A stretch of DNA of 64,000 bases from a bacterium (GTDB taxonomy: Bacteria; UBA8248), in assembly GCA_965207065.1 (NCBI GenBank), contig OZ242260.1, positions 1,344,001-1,408,000 of the forward strand. The letters run 5' to 3'. The notes beneath the pieces are model-generated. The model had not been told where the DNA came from, made no database searches, and saw only the letters and a list, made by a program, of their open reading frames with translations. The position numbers and the translations under genes are program-made. Positions 2,583-58,747 of this stretch are shown piece by piece. Numbering within the stretch: position 1 is the stretch's first letter; each line of letters opens with the position of its first letter.

Positions 2583-2674
2583 GGAGAGATGGCCGAGTGG
2601 CTGAAGGCGCTCGCCTGCTAAGCGAGTAGGCTGGGAAACCGGCCTCGAGGGTTCGAATCCCTCTCTCTCCGCCA
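2583..2674 (+). tRNA. tRNA-Ser (anticodon GCT)
   Basis: GGAGAGATGGCCGAGTGGCTGAAGGCG..., anticodon loop CT-GCT-AA, long variable arm, GGTTCGAATCC T-loop and encoded CCA. Confidence 0.97.
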
Positions 2675-7112: not shown

Positions 7113-7250
7113 ACCCTGCGATGAAGTCGACCGGCCAGGCGCCCTCGTGGCACCCGGGAGTATCCACTTACCGCTGCTTCCTTCCGGACCTGACGGGGTT
7201 CGCGGGCTCCCGCCGCACGAGACCCAACCGGCCGAATTCATCGCAGGCTC
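7113..7250 (-). ncRNA. ffs: Signal recognition particle RNA
   Basis: The minus strand contains the conserved TCAGGTCCGGAAGGAAGCAGC domain IV inside a long hairpin, and the gene sits upstream of dnaX as usual. Ends are approximate. Confidence 0.93.
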
Positions 7251-7538: not shown

Positions 7539-8402
7539 ATGCCTTACTCGAAAGTCGTCGAACTCACGGAAGGAAAGGTTTACGCCCTCCACAATACTTT
7601 TCCCCTGGACGGGCGGATCAGCGCATATCCCATCAGCGCACGCGGGCACAGCGTCTCGAACTGCTTTCTATTGAAAGATGACTCAGGTGCGCTCCTGCTC
7701 GATACGGGCTACGCCGCCCACGAGGCCGAAATTCTGGCGCAGCTGGAATCTCTCATCGACCCCGATTCGCCCCTGCATCTGCTTCCATTGCGAATCAACG
7801 AATTCATGTCTGTGGGCAACGCCATGGCGATCGCCAAGCGCTTCAACGTGGTGGAGTGCCTCGCCCCGGTGCCGGAAATCAACGAGTGGCTCGAGTTCGA
7901 AGCGCTCGAGCCCGGCGGCGGAAACAACGGCAATCCCATCCTTCCCACCACGATATTGAAACCGCTTCATCCCATCGAAATCGGCGATAGATACATCGAG
8001 GTGATGATCGCGCCGATTCGTCTCATCAGCACCCGCTGGATTTACGATGCGGCCACGCGCACGCTGTTCACCTCGGACATGTTCAGCCATCTTTGGACGG
8101 ATAGGGCGGAAGGTCCCTGGCTGCTGGATGAAGACGAGGTGACGACGACTTCTTTCGTTCGCTCGTTCCTGCTGAACACGCGCTACTGGTGGCTCGAGGG
8201 TGCGAGGACAAATTCCATCCGCAAAGGGGTCGCCGAAGTCTTCGAGCGCTACGATATCGAGACCATCGCTCCGGGCTACGGCGCCATCCTGCGCGGGCGT
8301 CATCTGGTAGAGCAGCAATTCGCCGTGCTGGATGAGGTTCTGGCGGGTTTCGACCGGAGCGTCGTCAAACCAGGGTACGTCGCATTGGGATTAGAGAGAT
8401 AG
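7539..8402 (+). CDS. Metallo-beta-lactamase-fold (FprA/ODP-like) protein with degenerate metal motif
   Basis: NCFLL..ALLLDTG, LFTSDMF and IAPGYG segments of the fold; the HxHxDH position is replaced by LRINEFMS. Confidence 0.7.
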   Translation: MPYSKVVELTEGKVYALHNTFPLDGRISAYPISARGHSVSNCFLLKDDSGALLLDTGYAAHEAEILAQLESLIDPDSPLHLLPLRINEFMSVGNAMAIAKRFNVVECLAPVPEINEWLEFEALEPGGGNNGNPILPTTILKPLHPIEIGDRYIEVMIAPIRLISTRWIYDAATRTLFTSDMFSHLWTDRAEGPWLLDEDEVTTTSFVRSFLLNTRYWWLEGARTNSIRKGVAEVFERYDIETIAPGYGAILRGRHLVEQQFAVLDEVLAGFDRSVVKPGYVALGLER

Positions 8403-8410
8403 GAGCGCTC

Positions 8411-9172
8411 ATGAGCTATCCTCTGCCCCGTGAAGTCTCGCCCGGCGTATTCTGGCTCGGCGACTGCCTCGTGCAGCACTCACAAGGCAAAATCTATCAC
8501 TCCTACAACGCGGCCTTCCTCGTCATCGGCTCAGAAGCCTCCATGCTCGTGGAGACGGGACATCCCAAGGATTTTCCCATTATCGAAGGGCAGATGAGAG
8601 ATATACTTGCCAAAGGCGGCGGGCCGCTCAAACACCTTTTCCTCACCCATCAGGAAACGCCCCACTCGGGCGGTCTGGGCCGCGTGCTCGACAGATACCC
8701 CGACCTCACCATCCACGGGGACATGTGCGACTACCATCTGGCGTTTCCCGAGCACGAGGGACGCTTCCAGGAGATGCGCGTGGGAGACGCCATCGACTTA
8801 GGAAATACGCAATTCATGGCCGTGGAGCCCGTGATCAGGGACTTGAGGAGTTCTCTCTGGGGATTCGAAACCAAAGGGCGCGTGCTGTTTCCCGGAGACG
8901 GCTTCGCCTACAGCCACTACCATACCGATGGTCACTGCGGAATGTTCGCCGAGGAGGCCACTTCTCTCGATCTGGTTGATGTGCTGGGCGTTTTCGCCGA
9001 ACGCGCCCTGTTCTGGACCACCTTCACCGACATGAACATCTACGCCGACAAACTCGAAGAACTGATGGCCGAGTTAAACGTCGAAATCGTAGCGCCGACG
9101 CACGGCCTCCCCATACGGGACATCGCGCGCACGATGCCGAAAGTCCGAGAAGGCCTAATCCAGGGCAATTAA
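8411..9172 (+). CDS. Metallo-beta-lactamase-fold (FprA/ODP-like) protein
   Basis: LVETG, THQETPHSGG, FPGDGF and APTHG motifs. Confidence 0.8.
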   Translation: MSYPLPREVSPGVFWLGDCLVQHSQGKIYHSYNAAFLVIGSEASMLVETGHPKDFPIIEGQMRDILAKGGGPLKHLFLTHQETPHSGGLGRVLDRYPDLTIHGDMCDYHLAFPEHEGRFQEMRVGDAIDLGNTQFMAVEPVIRDLRSSLWGFETKGRVLFPGDGFAYSHYHTDGHCGMFAEEATSLDLVDVLGVFAERALFWTTFTDMNIYADKLEELMAELNVEIVAPTHGLPIRDIARTMPKVREGLIQGN

Positions 9173-9209: not shown

Positions 9210-9608
9210 CTAGACGTCCTCCACCAGCTCCCACAGCGTGCCCATGGTGCTCTTGGGCTTGATGAAGGCGATGAGGTGCCCGCCGAAGCCGGGCCTGGAT
9301 TTCTCATCGATGAGTTCGAAGCCCTGCGCCTTCATGTCAGCCAGCACACCGTCGATGTTCTTCACGTCAAAGGCCACGTGGTGGAGGCCCTCGCCGCGCT
9401 CTTCGATGAACTTGGCGAGAGGGGTGTCCTGCCTGATGGGCGAGATGGGCTCGATGAGGTCGCCGCCCAGGTCCAGCATGGCCAGATCGGTCGCGCCGTC
9501 GGCAGAGGTCTCCCGCGCCAGCAGCTTCGCTCCCATGCCCTCGTATAGGGCGATGGCGGCGTCCATATCCTTCACCGCAACGCCGATGTGATGAAACTTG
9601 TTGAACAT
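9210..9608 (-). CDS. mce: VOC family protein, methylmalonyl-CoA epimerase-like
   Basis: HHIGVAV, GEGLHHVAF and IAFIKPKSTMGTLWELVE motifs. Confidence 0.78.
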   Translation of the reverse strand: MFNKFHHIGVAVKDMDAAIALYEGMGAKLLARETSADGATDLAMLDLGGDLIEPISPIRQDTPLAKFIEERGEGLHHVAFDVKNIDGVLADMKAQGFELIDEKSRPGFGGHLIAFIKPKSTMGTLWELVEDV

Positions 9609-9820
9609 ATCCGCATTCCTCCCGGCCTCGCGCGGCGGCGGAACGCGCTCCCCTCGCCGCGCCGGCCATTCATAGATTTGGTGACCCCCTGTTTAGCAGG
9701 CTTGGCGCGATTCCTCAATCAAACCCGCCTGGGAAACTATATTTCAGAGAGCGTTTGTCGTATCCTTCGTACATCAACACTATTAAACGAGCCGCATATT
9801 CATCCATGAGGAGAACATCC

Positions 9821-10384
9821 ATGCAAGAAGGCCCCATCGACGGACACAGCACCTCCACCGTGCTGGGCGAGCGCGTCATCGACAAGCCCGAACACCCGGC
9901 CGGAGGACTCTTTACCGACAACACCGTCCACACGGAGATGCACGAGGGCTCCCTGCAGCTCAAACGCGGCGCCGCCGGAAAATTCGAGATATTCTGCGAC
10001 GAGGGCGCGGGAATCGGCGGCACGGCCCAATACCCCACGCCCATGGCCTATCTCGCGATGGCGACGGGGTTCTGACTGCTCACCCAGGTGTCGCGGTACG
10101 CGCACATGATGAAAATGGAAATCAAAGGAGCGAGCGTCTCTGTCCGGTTCCGAAAACTTTTGGGCGGCTCGGTGCTCAAGGGCACCGTGTTCAACAAGTG
10201 GGAGAGCGTGGACACGCACCTGAAAGTCGAATCGGACGAGCCCGCGGACAGGCTCGCCCACCTCATCAAGAACGCCAAGAACGGCTGTTTCGCCGAGGCC
10301 CTCATTTCAGAGCCCGTGCCGCTCAACTCCACCATCGAGGTGAACGGCGAGCCCTTCAAGATAGAGGGCGTGACGGCGGATTAA
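9821..10384 (+). CDS. OsmC-related protein, probable selenoprotein (in-frame TGA 10073-10075, codon 85)
   Basis: RBS GAGGAGA precedes ATG 9821. The frame reads ...DEGAGIGGTAQYPTPMAYLAMATGF-TGA-LLTQVSRYA...KNGCFAE, so the TGA is at the first OsmC Cys and the frame stays open to TAA 10384. Confidence 0.88.
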
Positions 10385-10406
10385 CATCAATACATGGAGT
10401 TTATGG

Positions 10407-10859
10407 ATGGAATATTTCAACGCATCGGACGACATATCCTTCGGCTCGCAGCCCGAGCCCGCGGACCTCGAAGCCCTCGCCGCAAGAGGGGTCAAGACCA
10501 TCATCAACACGCGCTTTCCCGAGGAAGACCAGGGCGATTTGCCTCCCGAGCGCGCCAGGGCCGAGGCCGAGGCGCTGGGCATGCGCTACGTGAACATCCC
10601 CGTCTCGCCGGTCGAGTTCACTCCTGCCTCGCTGGCCGAGGTGAGCCGCGCGCTCGCTGAAGCCAAGGCCCGCGGCCCCGCCTTCGTCCACTGAAAGGCC
10701 ACGGGGCGGGCCGGGATTTGCTCGCTGAACCATCTGGCGGATGAGAACGACTGGACGGCGCGGGAGATGGAGGGGGCCGCCGACGCCACCGGCTTCGACT
10801 GGCGCGACGCGCCGCTCGCGCCCAAGTACCGCGAGTTCTTCTCCCGGAGGCCCGGCTAG
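10407..10859 (+). CDS. DUF442/beta-lactamase-hydrolase-like (PTP-fold sulfurtransferase/phosphatase) protein, probable selenoprotein (TGA 10692-10694, codon 96)
   Basis: SQPEPADLEALAARGVKTIINTR and GMRYVNIPV, then PAFVH-TGA-KATGRAG, matching the PVxVHCxxxxR loop. The frame continues about 54 codons to TAG 10859. Confidence 0.85.
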
Positions 10860-11392
10860 GCGCACGCCGGATGCGCATCGCGCGCAAATGCGGGCTGTAG
10901 CGGGCAGATGCGCGGGAATCGAAAATCTTTTTTTGTCGCTATATTTGAGTGAGCCACACTCAGATTTAATAAGTAATCTTTTTGATTACAACCGGTTACG
11001 AGGCAGGCGCTTTTCATCAATTTATCGAAAAACCCCGTGAATTTATCTGTATTTACAGAAAATATGATTATTTGTATTGTTGGCTGATCTTCGCTCGCCT
11101 CCCTCCAAAGGCCGTGTTCCCGCGCGATGTCCAGACGAGCACCCACGGGCGCGGGCGAGGGATGGGCGTTTGCGCTTCCCGGAGCAGTTGAGGATCGTCC
11201 CGCCTCCTGCCGATCCGCCTGATTCATTTTCCCCCTCCCCGTATCGATGCAGAGACTGCCTTTCGCGCGGGAAATTCTCGCCCACGCGCGCGAAAACCCG
11301 GCCACGGCAAATGCGGGCAAATGCGCGCGCGTTTTTTGTCGGTAGGTTTCGGGCCCGCGCCCGATTGAAAAGGAAGGGAAGCGGTTTTCGTT

Positions 11393-11420
11393 CGTCATTC
11401 CAGCGAAAGCCGGAATCCAT
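11393..11420. repeat. Short palindromic repeat (GTCATTCCAGCGAAAGCCGGAATCCA type, REP/RPE-like)
   Basis: Imperfect palindrome of the widespread GTCATTCCCGCGNANGCGGGAATCCA class, in an intergenic region. Confidence 0.6.
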
Positions 11421-11531
11421 TTGCTTTGCCTTTGTTTTTATTTTCTGACTGGTTCCCGAAATGACGGCTGTGGTTAATTCCGAGTGATGAGGAGTTTTTC
11501 ATCGGGCTTTCCTCTCGGGAAGCCCGACGCC

Positions 11532-12332
11532 TCAGGAGGCGCTCGTCCCGGACCCCCCGGGGCCGCGCTTTAAGACGCCGGCGGCGTCGAAGCCGCCGTC
11601 CACCGGCAGCGTCACGCCGTTGATGTAGCCCGATTCCGGCAGCGCCAGGTAGAGGGCCGCGGCCGCCACCTCCTCGGGCGCCCCGTAGCGGTTCACCGGA
11701 ACGCGATCGAGATAGGAGCGGCGGGTCTCCTCGTCGTGCATTCGCTTCACCAGCGCGGTTTCGACGGGTCCCGGGGCCAGGGTGTTGACCGTCACGCCGA
11801 ACGGCGCCCACTCGGCCGCCATCACCCGCGTCAACGCAGCGACGCCGCCCTTGGAAGCGCCGTAGGCAGCGCGCCCCGTCCCGCCCCGCAGCCCCGCCAC
11901 CGAGGACATCGAGATTATCCGCCCGTACCCCGCCTCGACCATCACGGCGCCGGCGGCCTGCATCATCAGGAAGCTCCCCGTGAGGTTTACGGCGATGATA
12001 CGGTTCCATTCCGCGAGCGTGGTCTCCAGCGCGAGTATCTCCTTCCCGACCCCTGCGAAATGCATCAGGATCTCAAGCGAGCCGAACCGCTCCGTAACCG
12101 CCGCAATCAGCGCTTCCACGTCTCTCGCCTCGGCCACGTCGGTCCTGACGAACTGCGCCTGGGCGCCTCGATCTTTCAACGCCTCCGCCACCCCCGCGCC
12201 CGCCTCCTCGTTCAGGTCGGCGATGACGACGGCCGCGCCCGCATCCGCCAGCGTATGCGCCGTGGCGAGTCCGATGCCGCTCGCGCCGCCCGTGACGACC
12301 GCCGCATGTCCTTCGAGCTTGAAGGCGCACAT
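11532..12332 (-). CDS. Short-chain dehydrogenase/reductase
   Basis: TGGASGIG and YGASK motifs; start overlaps the kbl stop (TAATG). Confidence 0.92.
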   Translation of the reverse strand: MCAFKLEGHAAVVTGGASGIGLATAHTLADAGAAVVIADLNEEAGAGVAEALKDRGAQAQFVRTDVAEARDVEALIAAVTERFGSLEILMHFAGVGKEILALETTLAEWNRIIAVNLTGSFLMMQAAGAVMVEAGYGRIISMSSVAGLRGGTGRAAYGASKGGVAALTRVMAAEWAPFGVTVNTLAPGPVETALVKRMHDEETRRSYLDRVPVNRYGAPEEVAAAALYLALPESGYINGVTLPVDGGFDAAGVLKRGPGGSGTSAS

Positions 12333-15343: not shown

Positions 15344-16234
15344 TCACTCCCCGATCTTCCAGACGCCCTTCTCCCGAAATGCGGGGATGGTCTGGCGGCG
15401 GGCGGCGTTGGTGGTGGCGGGAGCCGAGAGGCCTCTCTTACGTATGTAGTCGGATAGCCGCACGACCGATTCTCCCCGCAGGTAGGTCACTCGCTTGTGG
15501 AGCGATTCCAGAAGCGCCAGCGACAGGATGTTCTCCATCGTCCTAGTCGTCCGGCGGTCACGATAGTCGTTGAACGCCTGGTAATAACGCTCCTTGTCCG
15601 AATTGCGGATGATGATGCGCGGCAGGCCGAATTGTAAAAGCTGAAAGTTGATGATGACCCGCCCGATGCGGCCGTTTCCGTCGCAGAAGGGATGAATCGT
15701 CTCGAAGTCCAGGTGGAAACGGGCTACCTTGTCGAGACAGTAGGAATCCAGATCGCTCGAATACTCGATGAGGATGTTCTCCATCATGCGCTCCACGTGC
15801 TCGGGCGCCGGCGCGATGTGCGTGCCCACGCGCACATACTCCCCCTGCCTACGGAACCGGCCCGCGATGGCGTCGTCGATGCCGCCGATGAGCATCCGGT
15901 GGAGCAGCAGTATCAACTCCTCATTCAGTTCGCTGTCCTCCGTCCGCGCGCGCATGTATTCGGTGACGCGGGCCAGATTCTTGGCTTCAAAGACCTCCCG
16001 CACGCTAACCTCGCGCGCGAGGGATTGCTCCAGCAGGATTCTTTCGGTCTCATCGAGGGTGAGTGTGGAATTCTCAATCGCGTTCGAGTTGTAGACGCTC
16101 TCGGGTGCTTCCACTTCGTCGATCATCGCCAGGAGCGATTCCTTGCCCCGGCGCAAGGCGTCGTACTCTCTCTTAAGAGTCCCTACGCGTTCTCTTGCCG
16201 GTCCTGTGGTAGCCATGCCTTCAATATATCTCAT
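15344..16234 (-). CDS. Fic domain protein (class II) with small C-terminal putative DNA-binding domain
   Basis: HPFCDGNGRIGR Fic motif and SNAIEN inhibitory helix. Confidence 0.93.
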   Translation of the reverse strand: MRYIEGMATTGPARERVGTLKREYDALRRGKESLLAMIDEVEAPESVYNSNAIENSTLTLDETERILLEQSLAREVSVREVFEAKNLARVTEYMRARTEDSELNEELILLLHRMLIGGIDDAIAGRFRRQGEYVRVGTHIAPAPEHVERMMENILIEYSSDLDSYCLDKVARFHLDFETIHPFCDGNGRIGRVIINFQLLQFGLPRIIIRNSDKERYYQAFNDYRDRRTTRTMENILSLALLESLHKRVTYLRGESVVRLSDYIRKRGLSAPATTNAARRQTIPAFREKGVWKIGE

Positions 16235-38593: not shown

Positions 38594-38867
38594 CCCTCTT
38601 CACGGATATGGAACTGGCGGCGTCCTCATTCATGCCGCCTTCGAGGAGGGGCTTTGACTCCAGGACGCTTCAATCTTTTTGCATCTTCTCTTTGTATGGG
38701 AAAAAGACTAACAAGAAACGGCGCGCGTGTCATCCTGAAGTGAGGTTCGAAATCGGGTTCTCACTTTGGGAAGCCTTCTGAGACGAAATCCTTAGAATGG
38801 CGTGAAAGATTACGCCCATTGTGGGAAGATGAACCCTTCACCGGAAAATTTCTGAAACACGCATTCG

Positions 38868-39536
38868 ATGAGGAGCCATCCCGTGTCCAGAGTTCCGTTG
38901 CTCGAAAGCGAAAGCGCCGAGGGCGAAGTCGCGCGCACTTTCGAAATCCTGGAAAACTTTCAGCGCAGGCAGGTCAATTCCACCCGGGCGACGGCGCACT
39001 CTCCGTTTTTGGCGCGCATCTTTTATCCGCTCGTCCAGACCCTGATGCGCGAGGGGCTGGGCACCGTGCTGTCTTCGAAGATCAAAGAGATCGCGGTCAT
39101 CAAGACCAGTCAGATGAACGGATGCGACTACTGACTCGCCCACAACACCGCTCTCGGCCGGGTGCTGGGAATCACGGATGAGCACGTCGCCGCCATAGGC
39201 TCGGACGACTACATGGATTCGCCGCTCCTGAGTCCTGAGGAGAAGGCGACCGTCCTGTGGGCCGAACACGTCACGCGCAACACCGCCAAATCAAGAGACG
39301 ACATAGCCGAGGACGTGCAAGAGCATTTCACGGACGCCGAGTTCGTGGAGCTCACCTTCGTTATCAGCTACTTCAACATGAGAAACCGCTATCATGACTC
39401 TCTCAAACTGCCGAACGATGAGATTGAAGTCATTGAGGACGTGGGCCGTCTCCGGCCCGACCCGGCGAAGCTCAAGGCGTTCTTGCAGGAAGTTCTCGAC
39501 AACTGGCCGGACGCCTTCCCCGAACCCAACGAGTAG
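38868..39536 (+). CDS. AhpD/carboxymuconolactone decarboxylase family protein, probable selenoprotein (CxxU, TGA 39132-39134)
   Basis: KEIAVIKTSQMNGCDY-TGA-LAHNTALGRVLGITDEH matches the AhpD NxCxxCxxxH motif; frame open to TAG 39536. The start could be GTG 38883. Confidence 0.9.
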
Positions 39537-45960: not shown

Positions 45961-46776
<816 letters not shown>

Positions 46777-46796
46777 GACACTCTCCTATCTGCGCG

Positions 46797-47657
46797 TTAT
46801 TCGCGCAGCGTTCCCCAACGCTGAACCGTGGTTAACTCGATGCTCCGCAAGAAAACACGCTCTACGATCACGCCCAGGATGCCGACGACCACAACGCCCC
46901 CGTACATCATATCCGCCGCCAGGAAATCCCGGGCCGAGAAAATCCGGAAACCAAGTCCCGCCTCGAGGGCGACTATCATCTCGCCGGTCACGACGATGCG
47001 CCACGCGCGGCTGAACGCAATCCGGTAGCCCGCGATGAGGCTCGGCATCGCGCCCGGAACCATCACCTGAAAGAAAAGCGTCATGCCCTTTGCGCCCATG
47101 GCCCTGCCCGCGCGGATGAGGGACGCATCCACGGTTTTCACTCCCGTCCAGGCGCTCACCATGACGGTGATCATGCCCTCGAACCAGAGCACGGAGATGA
47201 GGGTGAAATCACTCAGCCCGAACCACAGGATGACGATGGGAAAAAGCGCGAGACCCGGCACGGCCAGAAAAAAGTACATCGGCGGCGCGAGAGCCCGCTC
47301 CACCGTCTTGTTCATTCCCATCACCAGCCCGACCAGGGTTCCCGAAACGATGGCGAGGGCCGCCCCGACCAGGAGCCGGTAGAGTGAAACGTAGATGTCG
47401 AGCCAGAGGATGCCGGACTTCGCCTGCTTCACCATCGTGAACCAGATGACTTCCAGAGGCGGAAAAAGGACGGGATGAAGCGTTCCCGAATGCGCGAGCA
47501 ACTCCCAGAAGATGAGCAATCCGATGAGAGGCGCCGTCATCTGAAAGAACGCTTTGCCGGAGTTTCGGAAAACCACGTTCCAGTTCGGAGGCCCGAGTTT
47601 TCTCTCTGTCTCCGGCGCTGCTCCGGGCTGAGTTTGCGCTTTGTCGGCTGACGCCAC
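46797..47657 (-). CDS. ABC transporter permease (TauC/SsuC-like)
   Basis: IRAGRAMGA loop and AWRIVVTGEM motif. Confidence 0.9.
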   Translation of the reverse strand: MASADKAQTQPGAAPETERKLGPPNWNVVFRNSGKAFFQMTAPLIGLLIFWELLAHSGTLHPVLFPPLEVIWFTMVKQAKSGILWLDIYVSLYRLLVGAALAIVSGTLVGLVMGMNKTVERALAPPMYFFLAVPGLALFPIVILWFGLSDFTLISVLWFEGMITVMVSAWTGVKTVDASLIRAGRAMGAKGMTLFFQVMVPGAMPSLIAGYRIAFSRAWRIVVTGEMIVALEAGLGFRIFSARDFLAADMMYGGVVVVGILGVIVERVFLRSIELTTVQRWGTLRE

Positions 47658-57565: not shown

Positions 57566-58747
57566 TCATATGACAGGCTCCGACTCGTTATCGTGGAACA
57601 GATCGATGTAGTTCTGATACCGGAACCTCCGGTGGCGTGTCCGGCCTGTGAATTCATGCAGGATGCCGCAAGCGGCCATCCGGGCGACCAGATTGTTCGC
57701 CGCCGTGTAAGTGGTTCCGGTCAGTTCTTGCACGTCGCTAACCGATACGATCGGGTATTCATAGATATGATCCAGCACCCGGTGGCCGTTGGCGGCGGCG
57801 CGGCCGAAGCCCTCGGTGATAATGTGGCGGTGTTCTTCGCGAAGAGATAGTATCCGCCTCGCCGTATCGGTCGCCTGTCCGCTCACCTCCACGACTCCGC
57901 GCAGGAAAAAGGCGAGCCACCGCTCCCACGTCCCGCTGTCGCGCACCGATTGCAGTTCGTCGTAATACTGCTGCCGGTGCTGATTGAAGAACCAGGACAG
58001 GTAGAGAACCGGTTTCTGCAACACCCCCTGCTCGCATAGCAGAAAGGTGATGAGCAGCCGCCCCACGCGGCCATTGCCATCCAGGAAAGGGTGAATCGTC
58101 TCGAACTGGGCATGGGCGAGTCCGATTTTGACCAGTAAAGGCAACTCCGTATCGGCGTGGATGAATCGCTCCAATCGCGACATGTCCTCCGCGACTTGCT
58201 GGGGTGGAGGCGGAACGAAGAGGGCCTCATGAAGCGTGCAGCCGGCGGGCCCGATCCAGTTCTGGCTGCTCCGCAACTCCCCGGGCATGAGATGAGAACC
58301 CCGCCTGCCTTGGAGAAGTTCGGCGTGAATTTCGCGGATCAGCTGGATCGAAACCGGTATTTCAGGGAGTCTTTTCAGGCCGTGGTTCATGGCCGCGACA
58401 TAGTTCAACACTTCACCTACGTCGCTCGCTCGATTCGGAGCGAATATCTTCGCTTCGGCAGCCAGCAGGTCCTGCAGCGAACTCTGCGTCCCCTCAATCT
58501 GGCTCGACAGCACGGCCTCCTTACGGACGTACATGAGAACGAACAAGTCCGGATGGGGCAGGGTCTGTATCGACCCGTCGAGACGGCCCAGGGCGCGGTC
58601 GGCCTGGGAGAGCAGCACCTGCAACTCTCCGGTAATCTCGACGGGCGGATCGGGCGGTAAGGGCGCCGGAATGAAGGCCCGGTACCCGCCCAACTGTCGA
58701 ATGTACGACCCTGCGCGGGCGGTATGCTCGTTTAAGCGCTCGGTCAT
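57566..58747 (-). CDS. Fic family protein (class II) with C-terminal winged helix
   Basis: AFIPAPLPP, SSQIEGT and HPFLDGNGRVGR motifs. Confidence 0.95.
   Translation of the reverse strand: MTERLNEHTARAGSYIRQLGGYRAFIPAPLPPDPPVEITGELQVLLSQADRALGRLDGSIQTLPHPDLFVLMYVRKEAVLSSQIEGTQSSLQDLLAAEAKIFAPNRASDVGEVLNYVAAMNHGLKRLPEIPVSIQLIREIHAELLQGRRGSHLMPGELRSSQNWIGPAGCTLHEALFVPPPPQQVAEDMSRLERFIHADTELPLLVKIGLAHAQFETIHPFLDGNGRVGRLLITFLLCEQGVLQKPVLYLSWFFNQHRQQYYDELQSVRDSGTWERWLAFFLRGVVEVSGQATDTARRILSLREEHRHIITEGFGRAAANGHRVLDHIYEYPIVSVSDVQELTGTTYTAANNLVARMAACGILHEFTGRTRHRRFRYQNYIDLFHDNESEPVI

What the first reader, a model, noticed from the sequence alone, without database searches (positions are those of the whole stretch)
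9210..10859. Two-gene tandem selenoprotein operon (OsmC-U plus DUF442-U): candidate Se/S redox-relay module
Seen: the two UGA-containing genes are co-oriented and only 22 nt apart, and are divergent from a VOC/epimerase gene. Inference: an OsmC-type thiol peroxidase paired with a sulfurtransferase-fold protein, both using Sec, could be an undescribed persulfide/selenide transfer or detoxification module. Standard gene calling would break it into several short hypothetical fragments. Two neighbouring independent nonsense mutations, each at the catalytic Cys, are implausible.
Basis: inference. Interest (0 to 1): 0.8.

Follow-up and report, generated by a model that had tools for sequence, protein, structure and literature searches.

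The report
Two adjacent selenoprotein genes, one uncatalogued
Two neighbouring genes in a marine Nitrospinota-type bacterium each use a UGA codon for selenocysteine at the active site: one belongs to a known OsmC-like family, the other is a sulfur-transferase-fold protein missing from current selenoprotein catalogues, and whether the two work together is unproven.

Summary
Window 9821-10384 (+) and 10407-10859 (+) are two genes 22 nt apart, each with one in-frame TGA (10073, 10692).

Evidence that both TGAs encode selenocysteine:
- The TGA is kept in 21 of 21 (OsmC) and 24 of 24 (DUF442-like) orthologues.
- The reading frame stays conserved after it.
- Cysteine homologues align at the same position.
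- A hairpin fitting the bacterial SECIS model follows it, with frozen synonymous sites.

Gene 1 is already known. It scores above cut-off for NCBIfam NF041052, "OsmC-related (seleno)protein", and carries the UxxT motif described in 2005.

Gene 2 is a DUF442-type protein: tyrosine-phosphatase fold with a short C-X4-R loop. That domain has shown sulfur-transferase activity in experiments, and here Sec replaces the nucleophilic Cys. I found it in no selenoprotein catalogue or NCBIfam selenoprotein model, and databases hold it as 95-aa stubs.

The "redox-relay module" is not shown:
- The pair occurs in 20 of 23 related species, all one lineage with wider shared gene order.
- The three exceptions form one branch, so this is about one evolutionary event.
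- No fusions were found.
- Such genomes reportedly carry about 50 selenoprotein genes, so chance adjacency is plausible.
- The window holds a third candidate (AhpD-like, TGA 39132).

The parts
9210..9608 (-). Divergent VOC/glyoxalase-fold gene (methylmalonyl-CoA-epimerase-like), 132 aa
   Evidence: Pfam Glyoxalase_4 at 81.7 bits. TIGR03081 at 113.4 bits against a cut-off of 114.95. Present next to OsmC in all 20 loci that have OsmC.
9609..9820 (.). Divergent intergenic region with conserved blocks (e.g. CCTGTTTAGCAGG, GAAACTATACTTG, GTTTGTCGTATCC) and an invariant GGAG before the ATG of gene 1. It presumably holds the promoter or operator, but this is not demonstrated.
   Evidence: Alignment of 12 orthologous spacers. 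The sigma-70 consensus scan found no site here.
9821..10384 (+). OsmC-related selenoprotein gene, 187 aa. Has U85 in GFULLTQ (UxxT), a second conserved Cys at C156 (NGCFAE), and a nearly invariant C59.
   Evidence: NCBIfam NF041052 OsmC_like_Se at 164.3 bits, cut-off 95. Pfam OsmC at 47.9 bits. Cys forms P0068-P0071 read GFCLLTQ. Closest solved structure is 3cje. Invariant residues from alignment A6.
10073..10075 (+). Sec codon (TGA) of gene 1
   Evidence: TGA in 21 of 21 orthologues. Cys stands at this column in homologues.
10088..10105 (+). SECIS-type hairpin of gene 1: GUG-U(bulge)-CGCG, loop GUA, CGCG-CAC. The loop starts 20 nt after the UGA.
   Evidence: Fold at -8.1 kcal/mol, with 19 of 200 shuffles folding as well. 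The sequence is invariant in 21 of 21 orthologues, including third codon positions. The lowest synonymous-entropy window of the gene lies here, rank 1 of 148.
10385..10406 (+). 22-nt spacer with ribosome-binding site GGAG (10396-10399), 7 nt before the ATG of gene 2
   Evidence: Read from the sequence. The spacer is 21-25 nt in 16 of 20 loci. No terminator-like site was found in 9550-11550.
10407..10859 (+). DUF442-type (tyrosine-phosphatase fold, C-X4-R loop) selenoprotein gene, 150 aa. Has U96 in FVHUKATGRAG, R101, and an extra clade-specific C105.
   Evidence: Pfam PF04273 at 45.5 bits, cut-off 26.1. Full-length Cys form P0037 reads HCKAIGRAGVC. In a 48-sequence alignment H95 is invariant and C96 and R101 are kept in at least 90%. 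AlphaFold2 model has pLDDT 95.3. Best fold matches are the DUF442 structures 2f46 and 3gxg.
10692..10694 (+). Sec codon (TGA) of gene 2
   Evidence: TGA in 24 of 24 orthologues. 54 of 65 database hits end exactly here at 95 aa.
10705..10726 (+). SECIS-type hairpin of gene 2: 7-bp stem GGCGGGC/GCUCGCU with loop CGGGAUUU. The loop starts 17 nt after the UGA. A possible lower stem extends it to 10698-10738.
   Evidence: Fold at -10.5 kcal/mol, with 10 of 200 shuffles folding as well; -17.2 kcal/mol for the 49-nt form. All 7 pairs are kept in 15 of 15 sequences; one pair switches G-U to A-U in 4 of them. The lowest synonymous-entropy window of the gene lies here, rank 1 of 100.

Best explanation
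These are two genuine selenoprotein genes. They lie head to tail, 22 nt apart, in the core chromosome of a bacterium labelled Nitrospinota. They are probably transcribed together from the conserved region upstream of gene 1.

Gene 1 is a member of the known OsmC-related selenoprotein family.
- By analogy with OsmC/Ohr thiol peroxidases, Sec85 (UxxT) would attack a hydroperoxide.
- The resulting selenenic acid would be resolved by Cys156 into a selenenyl-sulfide.
- An external thiol donor would then reduce that bond.

Gene 2 is a free-standing DUF442 domain. It has the protein-tyrosine-phosphatase fold with the short C-X4-R anion-binding loop.
- This domain acts as a rhodanese-type sulfur transferase in Blh and in the Cupriavidus SQR fusion.
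- Here Sec96 replaces the nucleophilic Cys.
- Sec96 would carry sulfane sulfur (or selenium) as a Se-S(H) adduct between small-molecule or protein persulfides and acceptors.
- Arg101 and the loop amides would hold the anion.

What is shown and what is inferred:
- Shown: gene structure, Sec coding signals, family and fold assignments, and conservation.
- Inferred: both chemistries, co-transcription, and any hand-over between the two proteins.

I rate a direct functional partnership at roughly one in four. The simpler reading is two redox or sulfur-stress selenoproteins that share an inherited neighbourhood.
For: Sec coding:
- TGA is conserved in 21 of 21 and 24 of 24 orthologues.
- The downstream frame shows coding-type variation and no stops.
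- Cys stands at the same column in homologues.
- Both hairpins meet the four published bSECIS constraints quoted: loop of 3-9 nt, G in the first two loop positions, spacing of 16-37 nt, and MFE at or below -7.5 kcal/mol.
- Synonymous-site entropy drops after the TGA. For DUF442 it is 0.113 against 0.74 upstream and 0.67 downstream. For OsmC it is 0.073 against 0.59 and 0.60. Each is the gene-wide minimum.
- TGA is an ordinary stop in 10 of 26 family-assigned genes of the window, so there is no global reassignment.

Families:
- Gene 1 scores above cut-off for NF041052 and has the OsmC fold.
- Gene 2 scores above the Pfam cut-off for PF04273 and has the DUF442 fold.
- DUF442 sulfur-transferase activity and its essential Cys94/Arg99 are described in passages of PMC5823870, PMC6441731 and PMC9163753.
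- Cys relatives of gene 2 are fused to sulfur modules: MBL plus two rhodanese domains (P0084), rhodanese (P0085), and a YeeE/YedE sulfur transporter (P0231).

Co-transcription:
- The spacer is 22 nt with an RBS, and no terminator-like site was found.
- The spacer is 21-25 nt in 16 of 20 loci.
Against: - No selA, selB, selD or tRNA-Sec lies in the window, so the Sec machinery of this organism was not seen.
- Hairpin stabilities are only modestly better than shuffles, with z-scores of -1.4 and -1.8.
- No pair shows a compensatory double change: 0 of 12 pairs. The RNA evidence therefore rests on invariance.
- Gene 2 scores below the NCBIfam cut-offs for TIGR01244 (46.9 vs 85.85) and Blh (55.3 vs 625).
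- Its nearest hits with names in the sequence search are called tyrosine phosphatases, so sulfur transfer is an extrapolation.
- No biochemical data exist for either protein.
- No sigma-70-like promoter was found upstream of gene 1 by the simple scan.
Confidence: 0.8

Rival explanations
1. This is the first reader's model: the two proteins form a dedicated two-component Se/S relay. For example, DUF442-U could deliver or remove sulfane sulfur or selenium at the Sec85/Cys156 site of OsmC-U, or it could recycle oxidised OsmC-U. In this model selection keeps the two genes together.
For: - The genes are co-oriented with a 21-25 nt spacer in 16 of 20 loci, and adjacent in 20 of 23.
- Both carry Sec plus extra clade-specific Cys residues: C59 and C156 in OsmC-U, and C105 in DUF442-U.
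- One representative (P0102) fuses a thiol-peroxidase-type AhpC/TSA domain to a DUF442 domain. That gives a precedent for a peroxidase-like and DUF442 pairing.
Against: - All 20 paired loci are one lineage that also shares the flanking MBL-MBL-VOC genes.
- The spacer is 71, 73, 205 and 697 nt in four loci.
- The three loci lacking OsmC form one branch, so the pattern needs only one change.
- In those three loci the Sec gene sits by ilvD or by ABC/PCC genes.
- None of the 56 distant DUF442-like loci has an OsmC relative nearby by tblastn at E below 1e-5.
- No OsmC domain was found among the 17 multi-domain relatives scanned or the 2 longer hits (itself weak evidence).
- Nitrospinota-labelled genomes are reported with 48-54 selenoprotein genes (BSepDB passage). 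With k = 50 such genes among about 3,800, roughly k(k-1)/N = 0.6 adjacent pairs are expected by chance (my estimate).
- The window itself holds a third candidate selenoprotein gene.
Confidence: 0.25
2. Gene 2 is not a sulfur transferase. It would instead be a Sec-dependent phosphatase or an arsenate/oxyanion reductase of the tyrosine-phosphatase superfamily.
For: - The fold search returns many true phosphatases just behind the DUF442 structures: Tk-PTP, TpbA, PFA-DSP1 and PTPMT1.
- Pfam also matches PTP-NADK and PTP-SAK.
- The distant named relatives are annotated as tyrosine phosphatases.
- An arsenate-reductase selenoprotein family exists (review Table 1).
Against: - The loop is C-X4-R, as in the DUF442 structures and the assayed DUF442 domains. 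It is not the C-X5-R loop of phosphatases (the C-X5-R signature is recalled knowledge).
- The two best sequence and fold matches are DUF442 entries.
- The closest multi-domain Cys relatives are fused to rhodanese, a persulfide-dioxygenase-like MBL domain, and YeeE/YedE sulfur-transport domains.
Confidence: 0.15
3. The TGAs are real stops, giving decaying or split genes. Alternatively, TGA is read as another residue through a changed genetic code.
For: - Public gene calls end at the TGA.
- No Sec machinery was seen in the window.
Against: - The TGA and the downstream frame are conserved across 20-23 species, with third-position-biased change and no further stops.
- Cys, not Trp or Gly, stands at the site in homologues.
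- TGA terminates 10 of 26 ordinary genes in the window.
Confidence: 0.03

Closest known systems
OsmC-like selenoprotein family (NCBIfam NF041052 'OsmC-related (seleno)protein'; 'OsmC-like protein, UxxT' of Zhang, Fomenko & Gladyshev 2005 and the 2022 and 2026 catalogues)
   Same: - Gene 1 scores 164.3 bits against a cut-off of 95 over the whole model.
- It carries the UxxT motif listed for the family.
- It has a SECIS hairpin right after the UGA.
- It has the OsmC fold, with 3cje as best match.
   Different: Nothing that separates it from the family was found. It carries about 35 poorly modelled N-terminal residues before the NF041052 region.
DUF442 / PF04273 sulfur-transferase domain (Blh of Xylella and Agrobacterium; N-terminal domain of Cupriavidus pinatubonensis SQR; structures 2f46 and 3gxg)
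   Same: - Same fold: TM-score 0.74/0.78 to 2f46.
- Same H-C-x4-R loop spacing.
- Stand-alone size of about 150 aa.
- Relatives are fused to sulfur-oxidation domains.
   Different: - Sec stands in place of the catalytic Cys.
- Identity to solved DUF442 proteins is only about 19%.
- It scores below the TIGR01244 and Blh cut-offs.
- It has an extra conserved Cys nine residues after Sec.
- No sqr, pdo or bigR genes were found in the neighbourhood.
Rhodanese-like selenoproteins (forms 1-5 in the 2026 catalogue, PF00581)
   Same: They are a functional analogue: a sulfur-transferase active-site loop with Sec as the nucleophile (review Table 1).
   Different: The fold is unrelated. Those are rhodanese (PF00581), whereas gene 2 is the tyrosine-phosphatase fold. 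Gene 2 gave no PF00581 hit.
Known selenoprotein operons (grdA-grdB, prdB-prdC, frhA-frhD-hdrA, Prx with SelW-like, Prx-like with AhpD-like, SAO, Tso)
   Same: They too are neighbouring selenoprotein genes on one strand, taken in the literature as a hint of a shared redox process (review section 9).
   Different: An OsmC-like plus DUF442 pair is not among the examples in that section. Here the linkage is confined to one lineage.

Membership tests
Bacterial selenoprotein gene (both genes) | In-frame UGA conserved among orthologues, with the coding frame continuing downstream | tested here: met
   - TGA is present in 21 of 21 (OsmC) and 24 of 24 (DUF442) orthologues.
- No downstream stops occur, variation is biased to third positions, and amino-acid identity is 84% and 92%.
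Bacterial selenoprotein gene (both genes) | Cys-containing homologues aligning with the UGA position | tested here: met
   - P0068-P0071 read GFCLLTQ, and 3cje has Cys at the same column.
- P0037 reads HCKAIGRAG.
- Cys is kept in at least 90% of the 48 aligned sequences.
Bacterial selenoprotein gene (both genes) | bSECIS model: apical loop of 3-9 nt, upper stem of 4-16 bp, G in the first two loop positions, 16-37 nt between UGA and loop, and MFE at or below -7.5 kcal/mol (as quoted in PMC13188914 section 5) | tested here: met
   - OsmC: loop GUA, 7 bp plus a bulged U, 20 nt spacing, -8.1 kcal/mol.
- DUF442: loop CGGGAUUU, 7 bp, 17 nt spacing, -10.5 kcal/mol.
- Caveat: in 61% GC DNA such hairpins are common, with 19 and 10 of 200 shuffles folding as well.
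- Independent support comes from frozen synonymous sites.
- No compensatory changes were seen.
Bacterial selenoprotein gene (both genes) | The organism carries selA, selB, selD and tRNA-Sec | not testable with these tools
   - None was found in the 64-kb window.
- The rest of the genome was not available.
- Indirect support: a third Sec candidate lies in the window, and BSepDB reports 48-54 selenoprotein genes in Nitrospinota-labelled genomes.
OsmC-related (seleno)protein, NF041052 | Score above the curated cut-off over the full model | tested here: met
   164.3 bits against a cut-off of 95. Protein residues 35-176 cover model positions 3-144 of 144.
OsmC/Ohr thiol peroxidases | Two conserved redox residues (peroxidatic and resolving Cys) on the OsmC fold | tested here: met
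   - U85 and C156 are invariant in 16 of 16 aligned sequences.
- Both align with Cys residues of 3cje.
- All best fold matches are OsmC/Ohr entries; the model has moderate confidence at pLDDT 75.
- The assignment of peroxidatic versus resolving roles is by analogy, from recalled knowledge.
OsmC/Ohr thiol peroxidases | Thiol-dependent hydroperoxide reduction | not testable with these tools
   Needs an enzyme assay.
DUF442 / PF04273 (BLH_phosphatase) | Pfam score above the gathering cut-off, and the DUF442 fold | tested here: met
   - 45.5 bits against 26.1.
- A profile of alignment A5 hits 2f46 at E = 2.3e-18 and 3gxg at E = 1.7e-16.
- The model (pLDDT 95.3) best matches 2f46 and 3gxg.
DUF442 / PF04273 (BLH_phosphatase) | Catalytic Cys followed by Arg at +5 (C-X4-R), as for Cys94/Arg99 of the assayed Cupriavidus domain | tested here: met
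   - The window reads U96-K-A-T-G-R101.
- C96 and R101 are kept in at least 90% of 48 sequences.
- 2f46 aligns as C-R-T-G-T-R.
- Cys94 and R99 are named in passages of PMC6441731.
TIGR01244 family sulfur transferase / Blh (NF040641) | Score above the NCBIfam cut-off; for Blh, also a fused dioxygenase domain | tested here: not met
   - TIGR01244: 46.9 bits against 85.85.
- NF040641: 55.3 bits against 625, matching only positions 3-130 of 423.
- Gene 2 is a divergent relative, not a member of these curated subfamilies.
Classical protein tyrosine / dual-specificity phosphatases | H-C-X5-R(S/T) signature loop (recalled definition) | tested here: not met
   Only four residues lie between U96 and R101.
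Conserved two-gene functional module (operon) | Adjacency kept across independent lineages, or a gene fusion | tested here: inconclusive
   - Adjacent in 20 of 23 loci, but these are one lineage with wider shared gene order.
- One change on the tree explains the pattern.
- No OsmC neighbour was found in the 56 distant loci.
- No OsmC fusion was found.
- Metagenome contigs were closed, so a wider survey was not possible.
Conserved two-gene functional module (operon) | Co-transcription | not testable with these tools
   Only indirect evidence exists: a 22-nt spacer with an RBS, and no terminator-like site.

The most novel reading that the evidence does not exclude
Gene 2 founds a selenoprotein family that is not in the current catalogues, and it is the first with Sec as the nucleophile of a tyrosine-phosphatase-fold (DUF442) anion-binding loop. 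In this lineage it would work with the OsmC-type selenoprotein as a Sec-to-Sec relay. The relay would couple sulfane-sulfur (or selenium) handling to hydroperoxide or persulfide detoxification in a selenoprotein-rich marine bacterium.

The first half, an uncatalogued family, I rate at about 0.7. The whole statement, relay included, I rate much lower.
Probability: 0.2. Interest if true: 0.7.

Novelty: new variant of a known kind. Interest (0 to 1): 0.45.

Why it matters
- Gene 1 adds nothing new beyond another member of a known family.
- Gene 2 matters to selenium biology. It would extend Sec use to the tyrosine-phosphatase superfamily.
- It also shows a gene that annotation pipelines systematically truncate. 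The named database entry is a 95-aa "sulfur transferase domain-containing protein".
- A Sec nucleophile in a DUF442 loop offers a natural test of how Se-S versus S-S persulfide chemistry changes sulfur-transfer rates.
- If the partnership with OsmC-U were real, it would link sulfane-sulfur trafficking to peroxide defence. The present evidence does not establish that link.

Tried and rejected
- **Cluster membership.** The listing of cluster members, meant to give taxa of the divergent 95-aa forms and the Cys fusions, was switched off. The taxonomic breadth of the Sec form outside the Nitrospinota-labelled loci is therefore unknown. More divergent 94-95-aa stubs do exist: P0086 at 51%, P0087 at 45%, and P0150.
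- **Rfam.** The gathering-threshold scan found only SRP RNA and a tRNA, and no SECIS family.
- **Whole-region folds.** Folds of 60-81 nt after each UGA were no better than shuffles. Only the short hairpins stand out weakly.
- **RNAalifold.** It gave no compensatory pairs.
- **Promoter and terminator scan.** It was uninformative.
- **Search for longer fused forms.** It returned only 2 proteins among 7,999 scored candidates. The tool itself calls that weak evidence.
- **GC3-based scan for further TGA-interrupted genes.** It gave mostly false positives in this GC-rich DNA. Of six candidates read through and sent to NCBIfam, one was convincing (AhpD-like).
- **Literature gaps.**
  - Haft & Tolstoy 2025 on selenoprotein neighbourhoods is not held. 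I saw its families only as listed in the 2026 review.
  - The held BSepDB supplement returned no hit even for "OsmC", so it could not be used to check family lists.
- **Rejected readings.** Pseudogenes and a reassigned TGA were considered and rejected (see rivals).
Full report
**What is there**

The stretch 9210-10859 holds three genes.
- A VOC/glyoxalase-fold gene lies on the minus strand at 9210-9608.
- After a 212-nt divergent spacer come two plus-strand genes.
- Gene 1 runs from ATG 9821 to TAA 10384. It encodes 187 aa if the TGA at 10073-10075 is read through (U85, GFULLTQ).
- Gene 2 runs from ATG 10407 to TAG 10859. It encodes 150 aa with the TGA at 10692-10694 read through (U96, FVHUKATGRAGICS).
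- The spacer between genes 1 and 2 is 22 nt and carries GGAG 7 nt before the ATG.
- The start of gene 1 at 9821 is supported by an invariant GGAG-N-ATG in 12 aligned orthologous spacers.

The window is ordinary chromosome at 61% GC.
- It carries dnaX, recR, ybaB, SRP RNA, formate-tetrahydrofolate ligase, kbl and pfk.
- Database names and locus titles place it among bacteria labelled Nitrospinota.

**Are the TGAs selenocysteine codons?**

A scan of one genome per species matched 191 stretches. Of these, 158 encoded a relative, and the best 80 were kept as 79 loci.
- Twenty-three loci (L001-L023) are close relatives at 66-93% identity, all Nitrospinota-labelled or unlabelled MAGs.
- Fifty-six loci (L024-L079) are distant Cys proteins of Acidobacteriota at 32-43% identity.

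The conservation evidence is consistent.
- All 24 DUF442-like genes (window plus 23) have TGA at codon 96, followed by about 53 conserved residues in the same frame.
- All 21 OsmC genes (window plus 20) have TGA at the homologous codon, followed by about 100 conserved residues.
- Variable columns after the TGA are biased to third codon positions: 19/17/42 of 52 each, and 28/18/74 of 101 each.
- Amino-acid identity after the TGA is not lower than before it, and no locus has another in-frame stop.
- Cysteine homologues exist for both genes. Four full-length OsmC relatives read GFCLLTQ. One full-length relative of gene 2 (P0037, 50% identical) reads HCKAIGRAGVC.
- In a 48-sequence alignment the Sec column is Cys in at least 90% of sequences.
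- TGA ends 10 of 26 family-assigned genes in the window, so the code is standard.

Two nonsense mutations, or a reassigned codon, can be set aside.

**SECIS elements**

Directly after each TGA lies a short hairpin.
- Gene 1: 10088-10105, a 7-bp stem with a bulged U, loop GUA, -8.1 kcal/mol.
- Gene 2: 10705-10726, a 7-bp stem, loop CGGGAUUU, -10.5 kcal/mol.

Both satisfy the four constraints of the published bacterial SECIS model, which I read in section 5 of the 2026 review.

Taken alone this is weak evidence.
- 19 and 10 of 200 shuffles fold as well.
- Longer folds are no better than shuffles.
- No base pair shows a double compensatory change (0 of 12). One pair switches G-U to A-U in 4 of 15 sequences.

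The stronger evidence is that the hairpin nucleotides are invariant across species, including synonymous positions.
- For gene 2, mean synonymous-codon entropy is 0.113 in the hairpin codons, against 0.74 upstream and 0.67 downstream.
- For gene 1, it is 0.073 against 0.59 and 0.60.
- In both genes the lowest 8-codon window of the whole gene is the one after the TGA: rank 1 of 100 and 1 of 148.

What could not be shown: the window has no selA, selB, selD or tRNA-Sec, and the rest of the genome was not available.

**Gene 1 is a known selenoprotein**

- It scores 164.3 bits (cut-off 95) for NCBIfam NF041052, "OsmC-related (seleno)protein".
- It carries the UxxT motif listed for the OsmC-like family in the Sargasso Sea study and in the 2022 and 2026 catalogues. 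I saw only passages and tables of these papers.
- Its nearest solved relative is the OsmC-like protein 3cje, which has Cys at both the U85 and C156 columns.
- A moderate-confidence model (pLDDT 75) matches only OsmC/Ohr structures at the top of the list.
- The likely chemistry is by analogy with the family and is not tested. Sec85 would act as the peroxidatic residue, resolved by Cys156.

**Gene 2 is a Sec form of DUF442**

- Pfam PF04273 is matched above its cut-off (45.5 vs 26.1).
- The curated NCBIfam subfamilies TIGR01244 and Blh are matched only below cut-off.
- An alignment profile hits the two DUF442 crystal structures 2f46 and 3gxg first.
- A high-confidence model (pLDDT 95.3) also matches them best. 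True dual-specificity phosphatases follow closely behind.
- The loop is U-x4-R, the same spacing as in 2f46 and the aligned Cys relatives. It is not the C-x5-R loop of phosphatases; that signature is recalled knowledge.

Published experiments, of which I read passages, support sulfur transfer for this domain.
- The DUF442 domains of Xylella Blh and of the Cupriavidus SQR fusion are rhodanese-type sulfur transferases.
- They have an essential Cys94 in a basic pocket that includes Arg99.

Cys relatives of gene 2 are fused to sulfur-related domains.
- P0084: an MBL domain plus two rhodanese domains.
- P0085: rhodanese domains.
- P0231: a YeeE/YedE sulfur-transport domain.

I therefore favour sulfane-sulfur (or selenium) transfer through a Se-S adduct on Sec96. 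A phosphatase or reductase activity remains possible.

**Is gene 2 new?**

- A full-text search for "selenoprotein" with "DUF442" found 0 papers.
- The 2026 review describes its table as the most comprehensive inventory, with 119 families and subfamilies.
- That review contains none of "phosphatase", "PF04273", "TIGR01244", "BLH" or "sulfur transferase".
- I read its Table 1 in full, and it lists no such family.
- No selenoprotein-specific NCBIfam model matched gene 2.
- Public gene calls are truncated. Of 65 hits, 54 are exactly 95 aa, and one is named "sulfur transferase domain-containing protein".

Caveats apply.
- Haft & Tolstoy 2025 was not available.
- The BSepDB supplement could not be used.
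- Subscription literature is not searched.

I call it apparently uncatalogued, not certainly new.

**Is the pair a module?**

An OsmC-U gene lies directly upstream of the DUF442-U gene in 20 of 23 close loci.
- The spacer is 21-25 nt in 16 of these. For three loci whose OsmC gene ends in TGA, I worked the spacer out by hand from the coordinates.
- The spacer is 71, 73, 205 and 697 nt in the other four.

Several points weigh against reading this as selection for the pair.
- 18 of the 20 loci share at least part of the larger MBL-MBL-VOC-OsmC-DUF442 gene order.
- L019, L021 and L022 have no OsmC relative within the fetched DNA. There the Sec gene lies next to ilvD or next to ABC-transporter and PCC genes. 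L019 is only a 4.7-kb contig.
- On a protein tree these three form one group, with the wide-spacer loci as their nearest relatives. One change explains everything, and the root is unresolved.
- None of the 56 distant loci has an OsmC relative nearby.
- No OsmC-DUF442 fusion was seen. One AhpC/TSA-DUF442 fusion (P0102) is a faint hint of a link to peroxidase-type proteins.

Chance adjacency also has to be considered.
- BSepDB lists Nitrospinota-labelled genomes among the richest known, with 48-54 selenoprotein genes (passage).
- With about 50 such genes among some 3,800, about 0.6 adjacent pairs per genome are expected by chance. This is my estimate, and I could not confirm that this window belongs to that same group.
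- The window itself contains a third candidate: an AhpD-like gene with GCDYU at TGA 39132.

I put a direct partnership at about 0.25.

**Verdict**

- Gene 1 is already known.
- Gene 2 is a new Sec variant of a known sulfur-transferase fold and is the most interesting item.
- The relay module is an open hypothesis with little support beyond inherited adjacency.

Noticed in passing
window 38856-39536 (+), TGA at 39132-39134: A third candidate selenoprotein gene. It is an AhpD-like / peroxidase-related protein with the CxxU motif GCDYULAH. The read-through product matches NF053654 'YciW-related (seleno)protein', TIGR01926 and the AhpD core domain; only the AhpD core domain (29.3 bits vs 27.8) reaches its cut-off.
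   Followed up: partly
window 7539-8402 and 8411-9172 (+): Two tandem metallo-beta-lactamase-fold genes resembling the ODP / flavodiiron N-terminal domain lie just upstream of the VOC gene. Both are conserved in the same order in 16 of the 20 paired loci, and partly in two more. This may be a redox-stress neighbourhood.
   Followed up: partly
window 10860-11530: About 670 nt after gene 2 have no convincing gene; the 180-aa minus-strand ORF there has no Pfam hit. The stretch contains two copies, roughly 400 nt apart, of a unit holding GCGGGCAAATGCGCGC-like repeats followed by TTTTTTGTCG (families D1 and D2). Its function is unknown.
   Followed up: no
window 9609-9820: Blocks conserved across species lie in the divergent VOC/OsmC spacer. 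One is the imperfect palindrome CCTG-N5-CAGG (CCTGTTTAGCAGG), which could be a regulator site.
   Followed up: no
L018:1066-4245 (-) and L018:5304-6000: In one relative a type ISP restriction-modification gene lies between the MBL genes and the VOC gene. In the same locus, 697 nt with an unassigned minus-strand ORF separate OsmC-U from DUF442-U.
   Followed up: partly
proteins P0084, P0085, P0102, P0231, P0186: Cys-type relatives of gene 2 occur in several fused forms. The partners are MBL plus two rhodanese domains, rhodanese domains, an AhpC/TSA domain, a YeeE/YedE sulfur-transport domain, and YHS domains.
   Followed up: partly
window 45961-47657 (-): ABC transporter ATPase and permease genes whose best NCBIfam matches are SaoA and SaoP of the selenoprotein-rich SAO system. 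Both are below cut-off (275.6 vs 360, and 126.8 vs 295), so they are probably ordinary taurine/nitrate-type transporters.
   Followed up: no
window 7130-7229 (-) and 2583-2674 (+): Bacterial small SRP RNA (74.3 bits) and a tRNA-Ser (GCT).
   Followed up: no
window 15344-16234 (-) and 57566-58747 (-): Two Fic-domain-type genes, with sub-threshold matches to the protein adenylyltransferase Fic and 'mobile mystery protein B' models.
   Followed up: no
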